From: Escherichia phage EC.W14-3
Sequence record: PP496998.1
Reading direction: 5' to 3' (one strand)
DNA: 64,000 nt
The notes under the pieces are model-generated. The model was not told where the DNA came from, made no database searches, and saw nothing but the letters and a program-made list of their open reading frames with translations. The translations under genes and the position numbers were made by a program. Below are positions 1 to 64,000 of the stretch, piece after piece (within the stretch, counting starts at the first letter, position 1; each line of letters begins with the position of its first letter).

Positions 1-5
1 GTGGT

Positions 6-227
6 TTGAACCATCTCCACGCTGGGTGGGCAGACGCAGGGTTTAATAGCAGTAAGCTGACATTTGAATTCCATAACGTAACCAAGCATCATAGCTTACG
101 AGTTCGTGCTGGTATGCGTGTTGGTCAGATGGTTATGTTTGAGCACTCTCATGCAGGGGAGCACTCCTATGCAGTGAAGGGTCGTTATAATAACTCTGAA
201 GGTGTAGTTGCATCTAAAGGTGTGTAA
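6..227 (+). CDS. hypothetical protein (frame open to window start; may begin upstream)
   Basis: ORF track 73 aa; C-terminus loosely resembles the three downstream 65-69 aa paralogs. Confidence 0.3.
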   Translation: MNHLHAGWADAGFNSSKLTFEFHNVTKHHSLRVRAGMRVGQMVMFEHSHAGEHSYAVKGRYNNSEGVVASKGV

Positions 228-915: not shown

Positions 916-1245
916 ATGTTAGATTTGAGTAAAGTGGCCCCGCCCACTGAAGAGATTACAAAATCCAAGGTGATGCAACAGTTTTATCATCGTGATATGC
1001 TTGGTCGCTTTATCAAGAATCGTGATGTTGTTGCTTGGTCTATTGGTAATCAGGGATATCTGTTGAAGGTTCTTCAGGTTACAGGCTCAACTGCTAAGCG
1101 AGTTAAGGTGTATGACCCTGAAATGGGGCGTTCTAAGTCAGTAGACCCACAGAACTGCATCGTAATTACCCAGCAGGTAATGGATAATATTGCACGTAAC
1201 GTTGCTAACTCAGTTGAACTTGATGGAGAAAACCCAAATGCATAA
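916..1245 (+). CDS. hypothetical protein
   Basis: 109 aa ORF; GGAG RBS (acaggagagagttATG). Confidence 0.5.
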   Translation: MLDLSKVAPPTEEITKSKVMQQFYHRDMLGRFIKNRDVVAWSIGNQGYLLKVLQVTGSTAKRVKVYDPEMGRSKSVDPQNCIVITQQVMDNIARNVANSVELDGENPNA

Positions 1246-1801
1246 GAATGTTTTTGATTTACCTGAGATTGGTCGTGACAGTTATAGTATGTTAGACCGG
1301 TCTGATCTTTCAATCTCTCGCCTTGAAACAATGCAAGGCATGATTAGTGCAAACAGCCTAGAACACATCCTGAGCTGCTTACAAGCTAACATGGAACTAT
1401 TGCATATCAAAGCTAAAAACTACCACTGGAACGTCTCTGGTGCAGGATTTCAGGGTGTCCATGGTATGTTTGATGAGCTGGAAGATTACGCACGACAGGT
1501 AGGAGATCGTATTGCTGAACGTATGCGTTACCACTGTGTTAAAGTGGATGCTACAGCAGCTAATTATCTTTCTCATGCTTGGTTCTCAGAGGGGAATGCT
1601 GATCTAGACATGGACGGTATGCTCTCTGATATGTGCATGACCTTGATGTGTATTATTGAGAAGATGGATGAGTTTGATGGTGATTTAGCCTCCCACCCTG
1701 TCGATCAGAGTATGCTTCAAGAAATTAATGAAGGTCTTGGCAAGTATTGCTACTTCGTCAAGAGCAACATGTCCCATTCAAGTGGTGACGTGTCTTACTA
1801 A
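1238..1801 (+). CDS. Dps-like ferritin-family protein
   Basis: KNYHWNVSGAGFQGVHGMFDELEDYARQVGDRIAERMR matches Dps ferroxidase-region signature (HWN..G..F...H..F); start set at ATG 1238 overlapping upstream stop. Confidence 0.7.
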   Translation: MHKNVFDLPEIGRDSYSMLDRSDLSISRLETMQGMISANSLEHILSCLQANMELLHIKAKNYHWNVSGAGFQGVHGMFDELEDYARQVGDRIAERMRYHCVKVDATAANYLSHAWFSEGNADLDMDGMLSDMCMTLMCIIEKMDEFDGDLASHPVDQSMLQEINEGLGKYCYFVKSNMSHSSGDVSY

Positions 1802-1861
1802 AACCTCCGCCCTGTCTCCTAACCCGAGGTGGGGCGAACTTATTTATAAGGATATAGATAT

Positions 1862-2049: not shown

Positions 2050-2325
2050 ATGTCTAAAGTAATTAAGTTTTATAGCGATCAGTGTGCTCCATGTAAAGCA
2101 ATGGCTCCTACCTTTGAGAAGGTTGTTAAGGAGTTTGATGTAGAAGTGGAAGAGATTAACATCCTTGAAGGTGATGGTCGTGAACAAGCTGTTAAGTATG
2201 GTGTACGAAGTATCCCTGCTTTCGTTGTGCCTGACCGTAACAGTGGTGCGCACTACAGCCTCTCCGGTATGCAGACTGAAGCAAACCTGAAAGCATTTTT
2301 GGACACAGCCCTGAGAAATAAGTAA
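2050..2325 (+). CDS. thioredoxin-like protein
   Basis: CAPC active-site CxxC in thioredoxin context (FYSDQCAPCKAMAP), downstream cis-Pro region VRSIPAFVV. Confidence 0.75.
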   Translation: MSKVIKFYSDQCAPCKAMAPTFEKVVKEFDVEVEEINILEGDGREQAVKYGVRSIPAFVVPDRNSGAHYSLSGMQTEANLKAFLDTALRNK

Positions 2326-2340
2326 TAAGGATATTCACGG

Positions 2341-2997
2341 ATGAATGAACAACTACAAGCAACATTAATCGAAGCTATGGGAAGTGATCGTAGCGTAGTA
2401 AACGCAGCTCGAGTTTCCTTTGGCGTAACCCGTGAAGGTGATTTAAATGAACGTGATGAACGTCTCATCAACTTTCTCGCAAGAGAGAAGCATGTTACCC
2501 CATTCCGACACCCGCAAGTCAGTTTCCGATGCAAAGCACCTATCGCAATTGCGAGACAGCTGGGCAAGCATCAGGTTGGATTCTCGTGGAACGAAATGTC
2601 CCGGCGGTATAAAGATGGAGCAGTTGAAGTCTTCATCCCTAAAGAGATTTTTGCGAGACCTTCGGACCTCCATGCAGGTTCAGGGATTCAACTCATCGAC
2701 GGAGAGCGAGCTGAAGCATTAATGCTGATTAATGATGCATATGAAGCTTCTCTAGCAGCATATGACAAGTTGATTGAATTTATTGCACCAGAGCAGGCTC
2801 GATTTGTTCTTCCTCAGGGGATGATCACTGAGTGGGTGTGGACTGGTTCTTTGTATGGCTGGTTTGAGTTGTGCCGTCAGCGACTCTCCTCTCACGCTCA
2901 ATATGAAGTTCGAGTGTTTGCTAAATCTCTAGATGAAGAGATGGCTAAACTCTACCCAATCTCGTGGGCAGCTCTGAAGAAAACTTTGGAGAGTTAA
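2341..2997 (+). CDS. thyX: ThyX-like FAD-dependent thymidylate synthase family protein (variant signature)
   Basis: APIAIARQLGKHQVGFSWNEMSRRY aligns to ThyX [23 protein letters not shown]; canonical RHR replaced by KHQ. Confidence 0.65.
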   Translation: MNEQLQATLIEAMGSDRSVVNAARVSFGVTREGDLNERDERLINFLAREKHVTPFRHPQVSFRCKAPIAIARQLGKHQVGFSWNEMSRRYKDGAVEVFIPKEIFARPSDLHAGSGIQLIDGERAEALMLINDAYEASLAAYDKLIEFIAPEQARFVLPQGMITEWVWTGSLYGWFELCRQRLSSHAQYEVRVFAKSLDEEMAKLYPISWAALKKTLES

Positions 2998-3627: not shown

Positions 3628-3793
3628 CTTCTGTAATAAAGAGAAGACTGTCGCCAACTTTAAACCTAATCCTGTAACTGGTCTGACCCATGTCATGTGC
3701 CACTCTTGCAGGATATATCTTGAAACAAAACACACTATCAATAGATTGCATTATTATCACCCAACAACATTCAAATTTAAGGTTGTGAAATGA
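3608..3793 (+). CDS. small zinc-ribbon protein
   Basis: MEKKVCSFCNKEK...MCHSCRIY, two CxxC pairs; internal ATG of track ORF 3545-3793. Confidence 0.35.
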   Translation: MEKKVCSFCNKEKTVANFKPNPVTGLTHVMCHSCRIYLETKHTINRLHYYHPTTFKFKVVK

Positions 3794-4119
3794 TTGACAG
3801 TAATACATTTAGGACTTCAAATGGAAGTGAAATAAGTCCCGCTGAAGTAATCAATCGGCATAGAAGGCAATTGATCATCCATTCCTATTTGTATTACTGG
3901 TTGGATGACCCTATCTGGTCTGATGATAAATGGCAACAAGTTGCTAATGATCTAGTGGAGCTGCAAGCTCTGTATCCAGAGCCTACCGGAGTCTTTGACA
4001 GTGAGTTCAAAGATTGGGATGGTTCTACAGGGATGCACCTCCCACACAATGAGACTGTTGCTTGTATGGCGACAGCTGTTTACAGGATTCATAAAGATAT
4101 GAACCATGAAGTGCTCTAG
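3790..4119 (+). CDS. hypothetical protein
   Basis: 109 aa ORF, start overlaps upstream stop. Confidence 0.45.
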   Translation: MIDSNTFRTSNGSEISPAEVINRHRRQLIIHSYLYYWLDDPIWSDDKWQQVANDLVELQALYPEPTGVFDSEFKDWDGSTGMHLPHNETVACMATAVYRIHKDMNHEVL

Positions 4120-5081: not shown

Positions 5082-5399
5082 ATGGCAGATCATGTAGGAA
5101 AGAGAGATTATGCACAAGAAAGACGTACCGCAATTGCCCGTGGTGAGACAGGCGTTGGGAGCAAGAGCGGAGATGCTCAGCGCCACCGTGCACGTCGCAT
5201 CGTTGAAAAGCGCGATGGAAAAGCTGCTGTCAGAGGTAAAGACGTTGGACACAAACGAGCTGTCAAGTCTGGAGGCTCTAATGCGTCAAGCAACTTACGT
5301 GTTGAATCAGTCAGCTCAAACCGTTCAAACGGCGGCAAAAGTGGTGATCGAGCTGGAAAAGCAAACGGAGCTAGGAAGGGGGCGTTGAGTGGTTCTTGA
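5082..5399 (+). CDS. basic Gly/Lys/Arg-rich protein
   Basis: strong RBS AAGGAG; codon position-1 G bias supports this frame over overlapping track ORF 5110-5388. Confidence 0.45.
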   Translation: MADHVGKRDYAQERRTAIARGETGVGSKSGDAQRHRARRIVEKRDGKAAVRGKDVGHKRAVKSGGSNASSNLRVESVSSNRSNGGKSGDRAGKANGARKGALSGS

Positions 5400-5880
5400 T
5401 GACACCTTATCTTACGATGCGGTCACAGGTAACCTATATTACACAAAATCTCCTAGCAAAGGAGTGATGTGGAACAAAAGCCACCCCGGAAAGATAGCTG
5501 GATGTATGATATCGAAAGGCTATATCGGTGTGTATTTCCAAGGAAGACGATGGAGAGCGCACCGACTTATAGCTACGCACTTTATACCAAACCCTAACAA
5601 TTATCCAGAAGTCAACCACATCAATGGGATAAAAGACGATAATCGACTGGAGAATCTTGAATGGGTATCCGCTTCTGAAAACATACAACATTCCTTTGAT
5701 ACAGGGTTGAATAAAGGGCACACTCGTGACAATAACGGAATGACCAAATTATCCTCTGGAGATGTTGTAAAGATTAAACAGATGTATGTGAAGGGTTCTA
5801 GGGATTTTGGCTCTAGAGGTCTTGGTAAGTTGTTTGGCGTGAGCCATACAGCTATACTCCATGCTTTAAAGGAGCTTTAA
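5389..5880 (+). CDS. HNH homing endonuclease
   Basis: HRLIATHFIPNPNNYPEVNHINGIKDDNRLENLEWVSASEN HNH motif; GTG start at 5389 or ATG at 5467. Confidence 0.75.
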   Translation: MVLDDTLSYDAVTGNLYYTKSPSKGVMWNKSHPGKIAGCMISKGYIGVYFQGRRWRAHRLIATHFIPNPNNYPEVNHINGIKDDNRLENLEWVSASENIQHSFDTGLNKGHTRDNNGMTKLSSGDVVKIKQMYVKGSRDFGSRGLGKLFGVSHTAILHALKEL

Positions 5881-14933: not shown

Positions 14934-14943
<10 letters not shown>

Positions 14944-15833
14944 ATGAAGAGGTAAAAGCTTTAAAGAAAGCTCTTGCAATTAAAATCAAACATTTAAATT
15001 TCGTCAGAGATGAGTTGGAGGAGCTATCCAACTTATCAGGATATGAGTTACAGAATGAGCTTGTAGAGTTTCAAATCAATATTGATGGCGGTAAATACGT
15101 AGAAACAACTAGAGCGATTTTACCTAAAGTTACTGGTAACAAAACTTCTCCAGTAGACTACTCACATGACCACACGGAGCAATTAGAAATGGAATCTCAA
15201 GGCAATCCAGCACTGACCAATATGGTGGGAGATTCCCATTATAAGCCTTTAGTAGTAATTCTTAATGGGCCTCCGGGTTGTGGTAAAGATACGATAGCCA
15301 ATGCTTGGGTCAATGCCCATTCATACCATCACAATTATTCAACCAAATCCTTCAAGGAGCCAATGTACAAGGTAGCTGCTGCTGCACTAGGCATACCTCT
15401 AGAAAACTTTCTAGCACGCTATGAAGACCGTGAATGGAAAGAAAAACCTAGACCAGAATGGGGAGGGAAGTCTGTAAGAGATTTGATGATTTCTACAAGT
15501 GAAGACTTCTTAAAACCTATGTTTGGCAACAGCCATATGGGGGATCTTGCTGTAAAAAGCATCAAACAAGAAGGGTTAGGTCAGGATGATATTGTCATGT
15601 TTACTGACGGAGGTTTTGATGCAGAGGTACGAGAACTAGAAAAGAATTTCCATGTCCAAGTTGTACAAGTTCTTAGAGATGGTTGCTCTTTTGATGGAGA
15701 CTCTCGCTCATATATTGAAGGCGAACAGAGAAAAACATATCTACTGTTTAATGACTCAACTATTGAATCAGCAGTATCAGATCTAGATTGGATTATTGCT
15801 CAAGCTCAGGATGATATTTATGGAAGAAGTTAA
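14934..15833 (+). CDS. dNMP kinase-like P-loop kinase with N-terminal extension
   Basis: Walker A LNGPPGCGKDT; downstream blocks resemble T4 gene 1 dNMP kinase (SGKDT...SVRRLMQ). Confidence 0.55.
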
Positions 15834-62583: not shown

Positions 62584-63783
62584 ATGTTTCCAGTAACATT
62601 AGAAGATACTGAAGGTAATGTTTTAACGGTCAACCCTCCTTGTTATGGGTTCCTTCAGCTTCGCAACTATAACGGTGGCGTTGATGAAGACGGTGACGAA
62701 GATGATGACTACTTCGACCCTAACATGTATGAGGCAACTCATGGATGGAATATGCACGTTCGAGTATGGCATGAAGAAGCCAACGTTCGTAGCGCTGACG
62801 GAGAAGAGTTCTTGTTAAGCCGAGAGATGGGTATGTGTAAAATCAAGCATATCTGGAACTCTGGAACTCATATGAAGATGTTAGGTTTTAGACGTTGGCG
62901 TGATGAAAAGCATGTAGCTGAAGCTTTAAGTTGGTGTTCGTATGAAGATGAAGACACGCCTCCTAAGAATAACATTGAACGTTGGAACGACAAAAACCCT
63001 GAACATCGAACCACACCTCGTGCTGTACTGGAAGCTATGGAAGCATTTGTGGACAAAGACCGTCCCTCCTGTTTACGCTGGCACGATAAAGGTTTTATGG
63101 GGGTAGCAACTGAGAACATCCCTGCTGATCGTTGTCTGTTCTATTTGATGTTAGACCGAACCTTCTATTGTGAAGATGAAGAGAGTCAAGTTGAAACCTT
63201 CCTCCATAAATGGTTGGTTGAAGGCTGGACAATCCTTCAGGCTTATGTTTACTCACGAATGGTTAGCACTTACACTAACCTCTTGGGCGAAAAGAAAGCA
63301 ACTCTGGTTGGTAACGATTGGGATGCTTGTATCTTCCCAGCGTCGCTGTTTACAGTCGGCATGGCTGATAAATACGCTGAAGCATTTCAAGTTCCTTGGC
63401 GTCAACAGTCATACAGAGATGGATGCGGTCACTTCCGTGATGAAGACTTTAAGTGGATTCATTATGAGAATAACGAAACAGCAGAATTGCGAGTTAATAA
63501 CTCGATGTTCTTGCCGGTGATGCATCCTGATTTAGTAAAAGATGAGTCAGAAATACTCAAAGGTGACAACCTTCTGGTTACCTTTGCTCGTCGAGTATCT
63601 AAAGATGAAAGAACAGCTGACAGATTAGTCTACGCTTATCGCGCTGAGACTAAAGATATGTTCAATATTTATAATATTGTTCAGCGATTCAGTAGCGGAA
63701 CTCTGGACCAAAGTTCGGAGTATTCAGTGATTCCGTCCTCTGAGTGGGATGGTATTATGAGCGGATTATTTTTAGGAAAATAA
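62584..63783 (+). CDS. hypothetical protein (399 aa, acidic N-terminal region)
   Basis: long ORF with RBS GAGG; no recognisable motif. Confidence 0.55.
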   Translation: MFPVTLEDTEGNVLTVNPPCYGFLQLRNYNGGVDEDGDEDDDYFDPNMYEATHGWNMHVRVWHEEANVRSADGEEFLLSREMGMCKIKHIWNSGTHMKMLGFRRWRDEKHVAEALSWCSYEDEDTPPKNNIERWNDKNPEHRTTPRAVLEAMEAFVDKDRPSCLRWHDKGFMGVATENIPADRCLFYLMLDRTFYCEDEESQVETFLHKWLVEGWTILQAYVYSRMVSTYTNLLGEKKATLVGNDWDACIFPASLFTVGMADKYAEAFQVPWRQQSYRDGCGHFRDEDFKWIHYENNETAELRVNNSMFLPVMHPDLVKDESEILKGDNLLVTFARRVSKDERTADRLVYAYRAETKDMFNIYNIVQRFSSGTLDQSSEYSVIPSSEWDGIMSGLFLGK

Positions 63784-63793
63784 AAGGTTAGTT

Positions 63794-64000
63794 ATGTCAA
63801 TCTCCACAACGATCGTACCTCTTAATCTTCAACAGGATTTAGGGGAACAAAAGTTCTTAGGTCGTGGGTGCTTCGGTATCCACAACTACATGCAAGGCCA
63901 GTGTGTAAATGACATTAATGGTGAAGTTATCTCGGAAGAAGGGCGTTATCGTCGCTTCAACCGTGATATCAACTTGCAACTGGAGATGTTGAATTACTGG
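63794..64000 (+). CDS. hypothetical protein (3' truncated by window end)
   Basis: ATG after AAGG RBS; frame open to end of window. Confidence 0.45.
   Translation, partial: MSISTTIVPLNLQQDLGEQKFLGRGCFGIHNYMQGQCVNDINGEVISEEGRYRRFNRDINLQLEMLNYW

What the first reader, a model, noticed from the sequence alone, without database searches (positions are those of the whole stretch)
2050..2997. ThyX-like enzyme with a degenerate active-site signature, next to a phage thioredoxin
The ThyX-like protein aligns well to the ThyX core (PIAIARQ...SWNEMSRRY), but the canonical RHR motif, whose arginines contact the dUMP phosphate, is KHQ here. Either this is a tolerated variant or the substrate or chemistry differs (for example a different nucleotide). 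Together with the phage thioredoxin, a dNMP kinase-like enzyme with an unusual N-terminal extension, and Dps, this raises the possibility of non-canonical nucleotide metabolism or DNA modification.
Basis: partly seen in the sequence, partly recalled or inferred. Interest (0 to 1): 0.5.

Follow-up and report, generated by a model that had tools for sequence, protein, structure and literature searches.

The report
Phage ThyX with variant arginine motif
This is an ordinary, already annotated phage thymidylate synthase (ThyX) whose odd-looking "KHQ" motif is the normal signature of a large ThyX subfamily that also sits among housekeeping genes on bacterial chromosomes, so the motif is not evidence of exotic DNA chemistry.

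Summary
Window 2341-2997 (+) encodes a 218-aa ThyX with K76-H77-Q78 where Thermotoga maritima ThyX has R78-H79-R80. There is no RHR anywhere in the protein. A CxxC thioredoxin lies directly upstream (2050-2325).

The window is an Escherichia coli Kuravirus, 100% identical to phage EC.W2-6, where the gene is already annotated as ThyX.

KHQ is not degeneration:
- All 120 nearest homologues carry KHQ (one KSQ).
- Of 150 diverse cluster representatives, the motif could be read in 130, and 128 of those lack the third Arg.
- The change comes as a package: R78K, R80Q, a one-residue insertion, G89R and loss of R165.
- The residues I took as dUMP-binding or catalytic are invariant.

KHQ-type ThyX also lies in conserved chromosomal neighbourhoods of Spirochaetia, Nitrospinota, Chloroflexota and Poribacteria. 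The phage gene is under purifying selection (dN/dS 0.06-0.18), models confidently as a ThyX fold, and passes NCBI's thyX equivalog model.

Most likely it makes dTMP, fed by the phage dCTP deaminase and followed by the phage dNMP kinase, for a 42% GC genome.

The motif gives no support for a DNA-modification role. That role is not excluded, because this phage group is reported to resist restriction without explanation.

The parts
2341..2997 (+). thyX: flavin-dependent thymidylate synthase, 218 aa, K-H-x / R89 subfamily
   Evidence: Pfam PF02511 E 1.8e-43. TIGR02170 128 bits against a cut-off of 87.9. AlphaFold model pLDDT 96.2. Foldseek top hits are T. maritima ThyX with TM about 0.8. AAGGA ribosome-binding site upstream of the ATG.
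2566..2574 (+). Codons K76-H77-Q78, at the position of the canonical ThyX motif R78-H79-R80
   Evidence: Alignment to T. maritima ThyX. Translation AAGCATCAG = KHQ.
2599..2610 (+). Codons S87-R88-R89-Y90 (T. maritima S88-G89-R90-Y91). The extra Arg at position 89 co-varies with loss of Arg80.
   Evidence: Position 89 is Arg in 235 of 248 sequences lacking Arg80, against 1 of 120 in the RHR (Thermotoga-type) clade.
2854..2856 (+). Codon Y172, at the position of T. maritima R165. By my alignment-based numbering this equals Mtb R190 and Hp R165, a flavin-phosphate ligand in canonical ThyX. It is lost in this subfamily.
   Evidence: Column tabulation: R in 119 of 119 in the Thermotoga clade; Y, A or L in the K-H-x subfamily. 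Role of the residue from PMC6514825.
2050..2325 (+). Phage thioredoxin (91 aa, CAPC active site), 15 nt upstream of thyX
   Evidence: Pfam Thioredoxin E 2.1e-13. phrog_22. Sequence read. The SU10 orthologue was detected by proteomics (PMC4281155).
1..227 (+). 3' end of the dCTP deaminase gene (dcd); the gene starts upstream of the window
   Evidence: Pfam DCD. The full-length protein from the identical record passes TIGR02274 dCTP_deam, 107.7 bits against a cut-off of 92.8.
1238..1801 (+). Dps/ferritin-like DNA-binding protein
   Evidence: Pfam Ferritin E 2.5e-7 over only part of the protein. phrog_3636 'DNA binding protein' E 1.5e-54. Weak Dps NCBIfam hits, below cut-off.
1808..1836 (+). Terminator-like hairpin between the Dps-like gene and the trx-thyX pair
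   Evidence: Consensus scan only; the count does not exceed shuffled expectation.
14940..15833 (+). dNMP kinase (297 aa; P-loop at about residue 110), the proposed next step after ThyX
   Evidence: phrog_139 'deoxynucleoside monophosphate kinase' E 4.6e-55 covering residues 25-291. Annotated as dNMP kinase in PP445229.1. Pfam and PDB searches find only weak P-loop-region matches.

Best explanation
The gene encodes a functional flavin-dependent thymidylate synthase (ThyX) that methylates dUMP to dTMP using methylene-tetrahydrofolate, a flavin and NAD(P)H. It belongs to a large, so far structurally uncharacterised ThyX subfamily. In this subfamily three arginines of the canonical enzyme are replaced: R78 by Lys, R80 by Gln/Lys/Thr and others, and R165 by Tyr/Ala/Leu. 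A new arginine appears at position 89 (SGRY becomes SRRY), next to a one-residue insertion. I infer that the flavin-phosphate and dUMP-phosphate pocket is remodelled rather than lost, with Arg89 supplying the missing positive charge. In the phage, ThyX is one step of a dTTP supply line for a 42% GC genome replicating in a roughly 51% GC host: phage dCTP deaminase makes dUTP, host dUTPase makes dUMP, ThyX makes dTMP, phage dNMP kinase makes dTDP, and host Ndk makes dTTP. Shown here: family membership, fold, intact catalytic residues, the subfamily-wide motif, purifying selection, and chromosomal copies in bacteria. Inferred: the compensating role of Arg89, the enzymatic product, and the pathway order.
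For: Family and fold:
- Pfam Thy1 match over the full length (E 1.8e-43).
- TIGR02170 thyX equivalog above its cut-off.
- AlphaFold pLDDT 96.2; Foldseek TM about 0.8 to T. maritima ThyX.

Active site:
- H53, Q75, E86, S88, R90, Y91, E144, R147, R174, Q180 and E182 (T. maritima numbering) are conserved in the query.
- They are invariant or nearly so in 119 close and 98 distant relatives.

The motif is a clade trait:
- KHQ in 119 of 120 nearest homologues.
- Of 150 cluster representatives at 50% identity, the motif could be read in 130; 128 lack Arg80 and only 1 is a literal RHR.
- Named phages from unrelated groups carry KHQ, KHK, KYT, KYV or KHV.
- Arg89 is present in 235 of 248 sequences lacking Arg80, against 1 of 120 RHR sequences.
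- In PBCV-1 ThyX the side chain at position 89 can occupy the dUMP-phosphate pocket (PMC3498832).

Cellular copies:
- KHQ ThyX lies in synteny conserved across independent genomes of Spirochaetia, Nitrospinota, Chloroflexota and Poribacteria.
- Spirochaetia: next to pyrD and pyrF/pyrE. Nitrospinota: between AcrB/HlyD and IspH/MlaA. Chloroflexota: after 2-oxoacid dehydrogenase E1/E2.

Selection: dN/dS 0.06-0.18 across Gordonclarkvirinae and Grimontviridae.

Context:
- dcd, thyX and a dNMP kinase are in the same genome.
- The window is 42% GC.
- PBCV-1 gives a measured precedent: a dC-nucleotide deaminase plus ThyX shift dCTP:dTTP for a low-GC virus (PMC10142491).
Against: - No member of the K-H-x subfamily that I could find has been assayed or crystallised.
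- All solved ThyX structures whose motif I could read are RHR: T. maritima, T. thermophilus, M. tuberculosis and C. glutamicum, and H. pylori per the review. I could not read the motifs of PBCV-1 ThyX or PolB.
- The literature calls Arg78 and Arg80 conserved ligands, so activity with Lys and Gln is an inference.
- I could not check that the bacteria with chromosomal KHQ ThyX lack thyA.
- The 80/89 covariation is between clades, so it may reflect few independent events.
- Gordonclarkvirinae are experimentally resistant to restriction-modification systems without a known reason, which leaves room for unusual nucleotide chemistry.
Confidence: 0.8

Rival explanations
1. Neofunctionalised ThyX: the enzyme still loads a methylene onto C5 of dUMP but releases a different product, for example 5-hydroxymethyl-dUMP by hydration of the exocyclic methylene intermediate. 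The dNMP kinase and the phage polymerase then put that product into DNA, which would explain the restriction resistance of this phage group.
For: [quoted passage not shown]
- The window carries 10 EcoRI, 28 EcoRV, 7 EcoKI and 110 EcoP1I sites, so lack of sites does not explain resistance to those systems.
- The ThyX reaction passes through an exocyclic methylene (PMC8989533).
- Two of the three motif residues differ from every biochemically studied ThyX I could read.
- The genome has an early amidoligase / glutamine amidotransferase / ATP-grasp cluster. Such domains were noted near thymidine-hypermodification genes in metagenomic contigs.
Against: - The same motif package occurs in bacterial chromosomal thyX genes and in many unrelated phages, so it is not a signature of a special product.
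- No residue distinguishes the Kuravirus protein from those relatives at the conserved positions I tabulated.
- Virion DNA of the close relative SR02 was cut into clear EcoRV patterns in vitro (PMC11997193; relatedness, hit H22).
- phiEco32 termini were mapped by restriction profiling (PMC9965538).
- The window shows strong palindrome avoidance: CCWGG 2 against about 79 expected, GATC observed/expected 0.44, CTGCAG 0 against 17.6. From my own knowledge, not checked here, this is typical of phages whose DNA is exposed unmodified.
- No 5-hmU DNA kinase or aGPT-Pplase match was found among the proteins I scanned.
- Known dUMP hydroxymethylases are ThyA-type, not ThyX-type.
Confidence: 0.08
2. Different nucleotide substrate: a PolB-like enzyme that methylates UMP or another pyrimidine nucleotide rather than dUMP.
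For: - PolB shows that the ThyX fold can shift substrate (PMC5954106).
- PolB (4p5a) is detectably related to the query (E 1.4e-16).
- The first motif arginine contacts dUMP in canonical enzymes.
Against: - The query is much closer to bona fide ThyX: E 3e-31 to T. thermophilus and 8e-25 to T. maritima.
- The residues I took as dUMP and uracil ligands are conserved.
- The genomic context is deoxynucleotide metabolism and DNA replication, not a nucleoside-antibiotic cluster.
- Chromosomal KHQ copies sit in housekeeping neighbourhoods, in Spirochaetia beside pyrimidine-biosynthesis genes.
Confidence: 0.04
3. Degenerate, catalytically dead ThyX remnant, or a pseudoenzyme kept for another role.
For: Two of the three residues of the historical signature motif are substituted.
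Against: - dN/dS is 0.06-0.18.
- The ORF is full length, with a confident fold.
- All other conserved active-site residues are intact.
- KHQ itself is conserved in 119 of 120 relatives down to 54% identity.
- The gene is retained in roughly a hundred related phage genomes: 106 records at 60% protein identity or more.
Confidence: 0.03

Closest known systems
Thermotoga maritima ThyX (TM0449; PDB 1KQ4, 1O26 and others) and Thermus thermophilus Thy1 (6J61), canonical flavin-dependent thymidylate synthases
   Same: - Same Pfam and TIGRFAM family.
- About 31-34% identity, TM about 0.8.
- Same length class.
- Identical residues at H53, Q75, H79, E86, S88, R90, Y91, E144, R147, R174, Q180 and E182.
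   Different: - R78->K, R80->Q, R165->Y, S83->F with a one-residue insertion, Y84->W, G89->R.
- The arginines that the literature assigns to the flavin phosphates and the dUMP phosphate are rearranged.
- I found no structure or assay for this subfamily.
PBCV-1 (chlorovirus) A674R ThyX together with its dCMP/dCTP deaminase A596R
   Same: A virus of about 40% GC in a higher-GC host encodes a dC-nucleotide deaminase, ThyX, a thioredoxin and a nucleotide kinase. Infection shifts dCTP:dTTP from about 4.5 to about 0.6 (PMC10142491). The same pathway logic is proposed here.
   Different: - Only distant sequence relationship (E 1.7e-7).
- PBCV-1 has Gln at position 89.
- The host is eukaryotic, and the PBCV-1 enzymes are biochemically verified whereas the Kuravirus ones are not.
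PolB, the ThyX paralogue of polyoxin biosynthesis (PDB 4P5A)
   Same: ThyX fold. It shows that the family can change substrate specificity.
   Different: Weaker similarity than to true ThyX. PolB sits in a nucleoside-antibiotic pathway, whereas this gene sits among phage replication and dNTP genes.
ThyA-type dUMP hydroxymethylases of phages with 5-hmdU-derived hypermodified thymidine (SPO1, ViI, M6, and others)
   Same: Phage-encoded C5 one-carbon transfer to dUMP, accompanied by a dC-nucleotide deaminase and a dNMP kinase (PMC8989533).
   Different: Those enzymes are ThyA-fold, not ThyX-fold. They occur with 5-hmU DNA kinase and aGPT-Pplase genes and with dTTP/dTMP-degrading enzymes, none of which were found here.

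Membership tests
ThyX / flavin-dependent thymidylate synthase (Pfam PF02511, NCBIfam TIGR02170) | Full-length match to the family profiles above curated thresholds | tested here: met
   PF02511: 149 bits against a cut-off of 24.8, profile positions 1-190 of 191. TIGR02170 equivalog: 128.2 bits against a cut-off of 87.9.
ThyX / flavin-dependent thymidylate synthase | [quoted passage not shown] | tested here: met
   AlphaFold2 model pLDDT 96.2, pTM 0.90. The best Foldseek PDB hits are ThyX chains, E about 1e-17, TM 0.75-0.83.
ThyX / flavin-dependent thymidylate synthase | Literal 'ThyX motif' R-H-R-x-x-S | tested here: not met
   The query has K-H-Q-V-G-F-S, and no RHR anywhere. The literal motif also fails in 119 of 120 close homologues, in 128 of 130 scorable 50%-identity representatives, and in chromosomal bacterial copies. 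It is therefore a feature of the RHR clades, not of the family as the curated profiles delimit it.
ThyX / flavin-dependent thymidylate synthase | dUMP-binding and catalytic residues (T. maritima Q75, E86, S88, R90, Y91, R147, R174, plus H53 and E144) | tested here: met
   All are identical in the query (Q73, E85, S87, R89, Y90, R154, R181, H51, E151) and invariant or nearly so in the subfamily. Assignment of roles rests partly on the literature read and partly on my own knowledge.
ThyX / flavin-dependent thymidylate synthase | Flavin-phosphate ligands (R78, H79, R80 of one subunit; S/T55 and R165 of the neighbouring subunit) | tested here: inconclusive
   H79 and T55 are kept. R78 is Lys, and R80 and R165 are lost (Gln, Tyr). 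Arg89 is gained. Whether FAD is still bound in the same way cannot be decided from sequence. The T55 and R165 equivalences to Mtb S71 and R190 are my own alignment-based numbering.
ThyX / flavin-dependent thymidylate synthase | Homotetramer with active sites built from three subunits; bound FAD | not testable with these tools
   Only a monomer model without ligands, and without accessible coordinates, was available.
ThyX / flavin-dependent thymidylate synthase | dUMP -> dTMP activity or thyA complementation | not testable with these tools
   Needs an experiment. I found no published assay of a K-H-x-type ThyX.
PolB-type UMP C5-methylase (nucleoside-antibiotic ThyX paralogue) | Closest similarity to PolB, and location in a nucleoside-antibiotic biosynthetic cluster | tested here: not met
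   PolB (4p5a) scores E 1.4e-16, against 3e-31 and 8e-25 for true ThyX. The neighbours are phage replication and dNTP genes.
Phage thymidine-hypermodification pathway (5-hmdU route) | ThyA-type dUMP hydroxymethylase plus 5-hmU DNA kinase plus aGPT-Pplase (amino acid:DNA transferase) | tested here: not met
   The one-carbon enzyme here is ThyX-fold. The P-loop kinase matches the ordinary dNMP-kinase phrog_139. No aGPT-Pplase or 5-HMUDK Pfam hit was found among ten large or unannotated proteins of the relative SU10. Not every small ORF was scanned.
Thioredoxin | Thioredoxin fold profile and CxxC active site | tested here: met
   Pfam PF00085 at 50.6 bits against a cut-off of 23.5, with the CAPC motif. 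It falls below the NCBIfam TrxA equivalog cut-offs, so it is a divergent phage thioredoxin.

The most novel reading that the evidence does not exclude
The K-H-x/Arg89 ThyX subfamily, which has lost two or three of the arginines that hold the flavin and dUMP phosphates in every studied ThyX, might handle its flavin or its reaction intermediate differently. In Gordonclarkvirinae specifically, the enzyme might release a C5-modified dUMP other than dTMP that ends up in virion DNA. That would explain the reported, still unexplained resistance of these phages to restriction-modification systems, and it would be the first ThyX-derived DNA-modification enzyme.
Probability: 0.07. Interest if true: 0.75.

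Novelty: already known. Interest (0 to 1): 0.22.

Why it matters
For this finding, very little changes. The gene is an annotated thymidylate synthase, and the 'degenerate' motif is a normal subfamily trait.

Two modest points are worth keeping:

1. Reviews describe the RHR arginines as conserved in the ThyX family. A very large subfamily, found in many phages and in several bacterial phyla, replaces them in a coordinated way, and I found no structural or biochemical representative of it. ThyX is an antibacterial drug target, so a structure of this subfamily would show how rigid the flavin and dUMP phosphate pocket really is.

2. An intact ThyX under purifying selection, placed close downstream of the dCTP deaminase, argues against the published speculation that these phages replace thymine with uracil. 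It suggests the deaminase simply feeds dTMP synthesis. The reported restriction resistance of Gordonclarkvirinae therefore remains unexplained.

Tried and rejected
**Literature**
- Searches for mutational or structural data on Arg78/Arg80 mostly led nowhere.
- Key papers were not held: Ulmer 2008, Stull 2016, Koehn 2012, Liu & Yang 2004 and Savalia 2008.
- The residue roles therefore rest on one review and one primary paper.
- From memory only: Liu & Yang 2004 described 'distinctive ThyX motifs' in a cyanobacterial ThyX. I saw only the title.

**Searches that failed or fell short**
- The first genome scan with the 67-sequence alignment failed because it had no conserved stretch. I repeated it with 14 sequences.
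- The patterns that scan used contained KHQ itself. It shows where KHQ-type genes occur, not how common they are compared with RHR.
- I tried to read the motifs of PBCV-1 ThyX and PolB from PDB alignments by changing the query. Only T. maritima, M. tuberculosis and C. glutamicum alignments were shown.

**Ideas rejected**
- trx-thyX as a functional module: thioredoxin lies near thyX only in Gordonclarkvirinae and Grimontviridae, not in Chaseviridae, the Aeromonas phage or the N4-like phages.
- The dNMP kinase as a 5-hmU DNA kinase: it matches the common phage dNMP-kinase family over residues 25-291. PDB and Pfam searches found only weak P-loop-region matches.
- Absence of restriction sites as the reason for restriction resistance: EcoRI, EcoRV, EcoKI and EcoP1I sites are present at near-expected numbers.

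**Not done**
Full report
**What is there**

The window is a Kuravirus (Gordonclarkvirinae) of Escherichia coli. Its first 9 kb are 100% identical to phages EC.W2-6 (PP445229.1) and EC.W8-1, and 92-97% identical to SU10 and dozens of other phiEco32-like phages.

The finding spans two genes on the + strand:
- 2050-2325: a 91-aa thioredoxin with a CAPC active site.
- 2341-2997: a 218-aa protein that matches Pfam Thy1/ThyX over its whole length (E 1.8e-43).

The second protein also passes NCBI's thyX equivalog model, 128 bits against a cut-off of 87.9. The identical GenBank record already calls it 'thymidylate synthase ThyX'. Both genes have AAGGA ribosome-binding sites.

**The observation**

I aligned the protein to T. 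maritima ThyX (native numbering is chain numbering minus 12). R78-H79-R80 corresponds to K76-H77-Q78, encoded by AAG CAT CAG at 2566-2574. There is one extra residue before the conserved S-x-R-Y, and no RHR anywhere in the protein.

The literature I could read gives these arginines a double role:
- A review assigns the RHR residues to hydrogen bonds with the AMP phosphate, ribityl chain and FMN phosphate of FAD. The first Arg also touches the isoalloxazine and dUMP (PMC6514825).

**It is a subfamily signature, not decay**

- All 120 nearest cluster representatives (54-92% identity) have KHQ; one has KSQ.
- I examined the best 150 of 6,914 hits in a library clustered at 50% identity. The motif could be read in 130 of them, and 128 lack Arg80. 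KHQ occurs 67 times, followed by KHK, RHT, KHT, RST and others. Literal RHR occurs once.
- Named phages from unrelated groups show the same pattern:

| Phage group | Motif |
|---|---|
| Chaseviridae Ecp_YSF | KHQ |
| Aeromonas 4L372D | KHQ |
| N4-like Vibrio VBP32 and Klebsiella pKP-BM327-1.1 | KHK |
| Streptomyces LilMartin | KYT |
| Bacillus Novomoskovsk | KYV |
| Synechococcus S-CBS4 | KHV |
| Thermus P23-45, mycobacteriophages I3 and Scout | RHR |

The substitution comes as a package. I compared 119 Thermotoga-type sequences (all RHR) with 217 members of the K-H-x subfamily:

| T. maritima position | Thermotoga-type clade | K-H-x subfamily |
|---|---|---|
| 78 | R | K (some R) |
| 80 | R | Q, K, T and others |
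| 83 | S | F or L, plus a one-residue insertion |
| 84 | Y or F | W |
| 89 | G or Q (R in 1 of 120) | R in 235 of 248 |
| 162-166 | V-N-A-R-S | G-S-L-(Y/A/L)-(G/A) |

By my alignment-based numbering, R165 equals Mtb R190, which the review names as another flavin-phosphate ligand. It is lost in the subfamily.

In contrast, H53, Q75, H79, E86, S88, R90, Y91, E144, R147, R174, Q180 and E182 are identical in the query. Except for H79 (Ser or Tyr in about a tenth of the distant representatives), they are invariant or nearly so throughout.

In PBCV-1 ThyX the side chain at position 89 can occupy the dUMP-phosphate pocket. I therefore infer that Arg89 replaces the charge lost at position 80. This is an inference. 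The covariation is between clades, and I had no coordinates to test it.

**Bacteria keep this type on their chromosomes**

A scan of one genome per species found 50 loci with KHQ-type ThyX. The search patterns contained KHQ, so this shows occurrence, not frequency. Independent genomes of the same lineage share gene order around thyX, and the neighbours are housekeeping genes:
- **Spirochaetia:** lipoamide dehydrogenase, citrate synthase and two reductases, then thyX, then dihydroorotate dehydrogenase and OMP decarboxylase/phosphoribosyltransferase.
- **Nitrospinota:** AcrB and HlyD, then thyX, then IspH and MlaA.
- **Chloroflexota:** 2-oxoacid dehydrogenase E1alpha, E1beta and E2, then thyX, then an MFS transporter.
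- **Poribacteria:** an enolase-superfamily gene, then thyX, then an aminotransferase.

These are not prophage contexts. The simplest reading is that KHQ-type ThyX is a working cellular thymidylate synthase there. I could not check that thyA is absent.

**The phage gene itself looks healthy**

- dN/dS is 0.06-0.18 wherever synonymous sites are not saturated, for example Kuravirus against Suseptimavirus and against Grimontviridae.
- The AlphaFold model has mean pLDDT 96.2.
- Its best matches among solved structures are T. maritima ThyX chains, with TM about 0.8.
- About a hundred phage records (106) carry a copy at 60% protein identity or more.

**How it most likely works in the phage**

The genome also encodes a dCTP deaminase that passes the dCTP_deam equivalog model. 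Its 3' end is window 1-227. It also encodes a dNMP kinase at 14940-15833 (phrog_139, E 4.6e-55).

The window is 42% GC, and E. coli is about 51% (my own knowledge). The economical reading is a supply line:
1. Phage Dcd converts dCTP to dUTP.
2. Host Dut converts dUTP to dUMP.
3. ThyX converts dUMP to dTMP.
4. Phage dNMP kinase converts dTMP to dTDP.
5. Host Ndk converts dTDP to dTTP.

PBCV-1 is a measured precedent. That 40% GC virus in a 66% GC host encodes a dCMP/dCTP deaminase, ThyX, a thioredoxin and a nucleotide kinase, and infection shifts dCTP:dTTP from about 4.5 to about 0.6 (PMC10142491).

The thioredoxin is not a conserved partner of thyX. It lies near thyX only in Gordonclarkvirinae and Grimontviridae. 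It more plausibly serves replication or ribonucleotide reduction.

The kinase's 'N-terminal extension' is part of the ordinary phage family profile, which covers residues 25-291.

**The DNA-modification idea**

In its favour:
[quoted passage not shown] It speculates about dU replacing T, on the basis of the dCTP deaminase and a nucleotidyltransferase (PMC11990801). None of the passages I retrieved from that paper mentions ThyX.
- The window has 10 EcoRI, 28 EcoRV, 7 EcoKI and 110 EcoP1I sites, close to expectation. Lack of sites is therefore not the explanation.

Against it:
- The motif package is shared with bacterial chromosomal genes.
- A selected, intact ThyX makes replacement of T by U unlikely.
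- Virion DNA of the close relative SR02 gives clear EcoRV fragment patterns in vitro (PMC11997193, hit H22).
- phiEco32 termini were mapped by restriction profiling.
- The window shows strong palindrome avoidance: CCWGG 2 against about 79 expected, GATC observed/expected 0.44, CTGCAG 0 against 17.6, GAGCTC 0 against 13.5. Palindromes are depleted as a class, p about 1e-6. From my own knowledge, not checked here, this is what one expects for DNA that meets restriction enzymes unmodified.
- No 5-hmU DNA kinase or aGPT-Pplase was found among the proteins I scanned.
- Known phage dUMP hydroxymethylases are ThyA-type.

I put this reading at about 7-8%.

**Comparison and novelty**

The protein is a member of the ThyX family as delimited by the curated profiles and by fold. 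It fails only the literal RHR motif, and so do 119 of its 120 nearest homologues and 128 of the 130 scorable diverse representatives. That motif is better seen as a trait of the well-studied RHR clades.

All solved ThyX structures whose motif I could read are RHR: T. maritima, T. thermophilus, M. tuberculosis and C. glutamicum, plus H. pylori per the review. I could not read the motifs of PBCV-1 ThyX or PolB.

The object itself is already known and annotated. What is mildly new is the explicit description of the coordinated arginine rearrangement and its presence in chromosomal bacterial genes.

**Limits**

- There is no biochemical evidence for any K-H-x ThyX.
- The residue roles come from two papers and partly from my own knowledge.
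- The Arg89 compensation and the pathway order are inferences.
- The absence of thyA in the bacteria with KHQ thyX was not tested.

Noticed in passing
whole window (1-64000): There is strong avoidance of short palindromes and methylation sites: CCWGG 2 against about 79 expected, GATC 131 against 296, CTGCAG 0 against 17.6, GAGCTC 0 against 13.5, CCCGGG and CACGTG 0 against about 5. EcoRI, EcoRV, EcoKI and EcoP1I sites are near expectation. This suggests a history of selection by particular type II systems acting on unmodified DNA.
   Followed up: partly
window 1238-1801 (Dps-like) and literature on relatives: Gordonclarkvirinae are reported to be highly resistant to restriction-modification systems with no known mechanism (PMC11990801). 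Yet virion DNA of a close relative is cut by EcoRV in vitro (PMC11997193). The Dps-like DNA-binding protein and the thioredoxin were both detected in the SU10 proteome, which was dominated by structural proteins (PMC4281155). A protein-based protection of the incoming DNA is worth testing.
   Followed up: partly
L066 (SU10 NC_027395.1 53600-62200); window 62584-64000 holds only gp090 and the start of gp089: An early gene cluster encodes an ATP-grasp (RimK-like) enzyme, a class-II glutamine amidotransferase, Amidoligase_2, a 'phiEco32-like COOH.NH2 ligase' and a gamma-glutamyl cyclotransferase, flanked by large proteins with no Pfam match. Its function is unknown. Amidoligase and amidotransferase domains were also noted next to thymidine-hypermodification genes in metagenomic contigs (PMC8989533).
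   Followed up: partly
proteins P0122 and P0187 (homologues, not in the window): Some K-H-x ThyX genes carry an intein inserted exactly in the motif loop (…KHQSGF|C…intein…VVHN|SWNERSMRY). This is the site of the one-residue insertion that distinguishes the subfamily.
   Followed up: no
L002 5567-6928 (just upstream of the window, next to dcd): A 453-aa nucleotidyltransferase lies between the polymerase exonuclease subunit and dcd. It has a weak poly(A) polymerase / CCA-adding head-domain match (Pfam E 7e-4; phrog_12715). The BASEL authors cite it as a possible modification enzyme. Its role is unknown.
   Followed up: no
window 5389-5880: An HNH_3 homing endonuclease ORF lies between phoH and the DNA polymerase. 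It is absent at this position in SU10, and it accounts for part of the coverage gaps among related genomes.
   Followed up: no
window 3790-4119: A 109-aa protein consists only of the N-terminal Ia (NAD+-binding) domain of NAD-dependent DNA ligase (Pfam Nlig-Ia E 6e-35). Relatives annotate it as 'DNA ligase', but it is far too short to be one.
   Followed up: no
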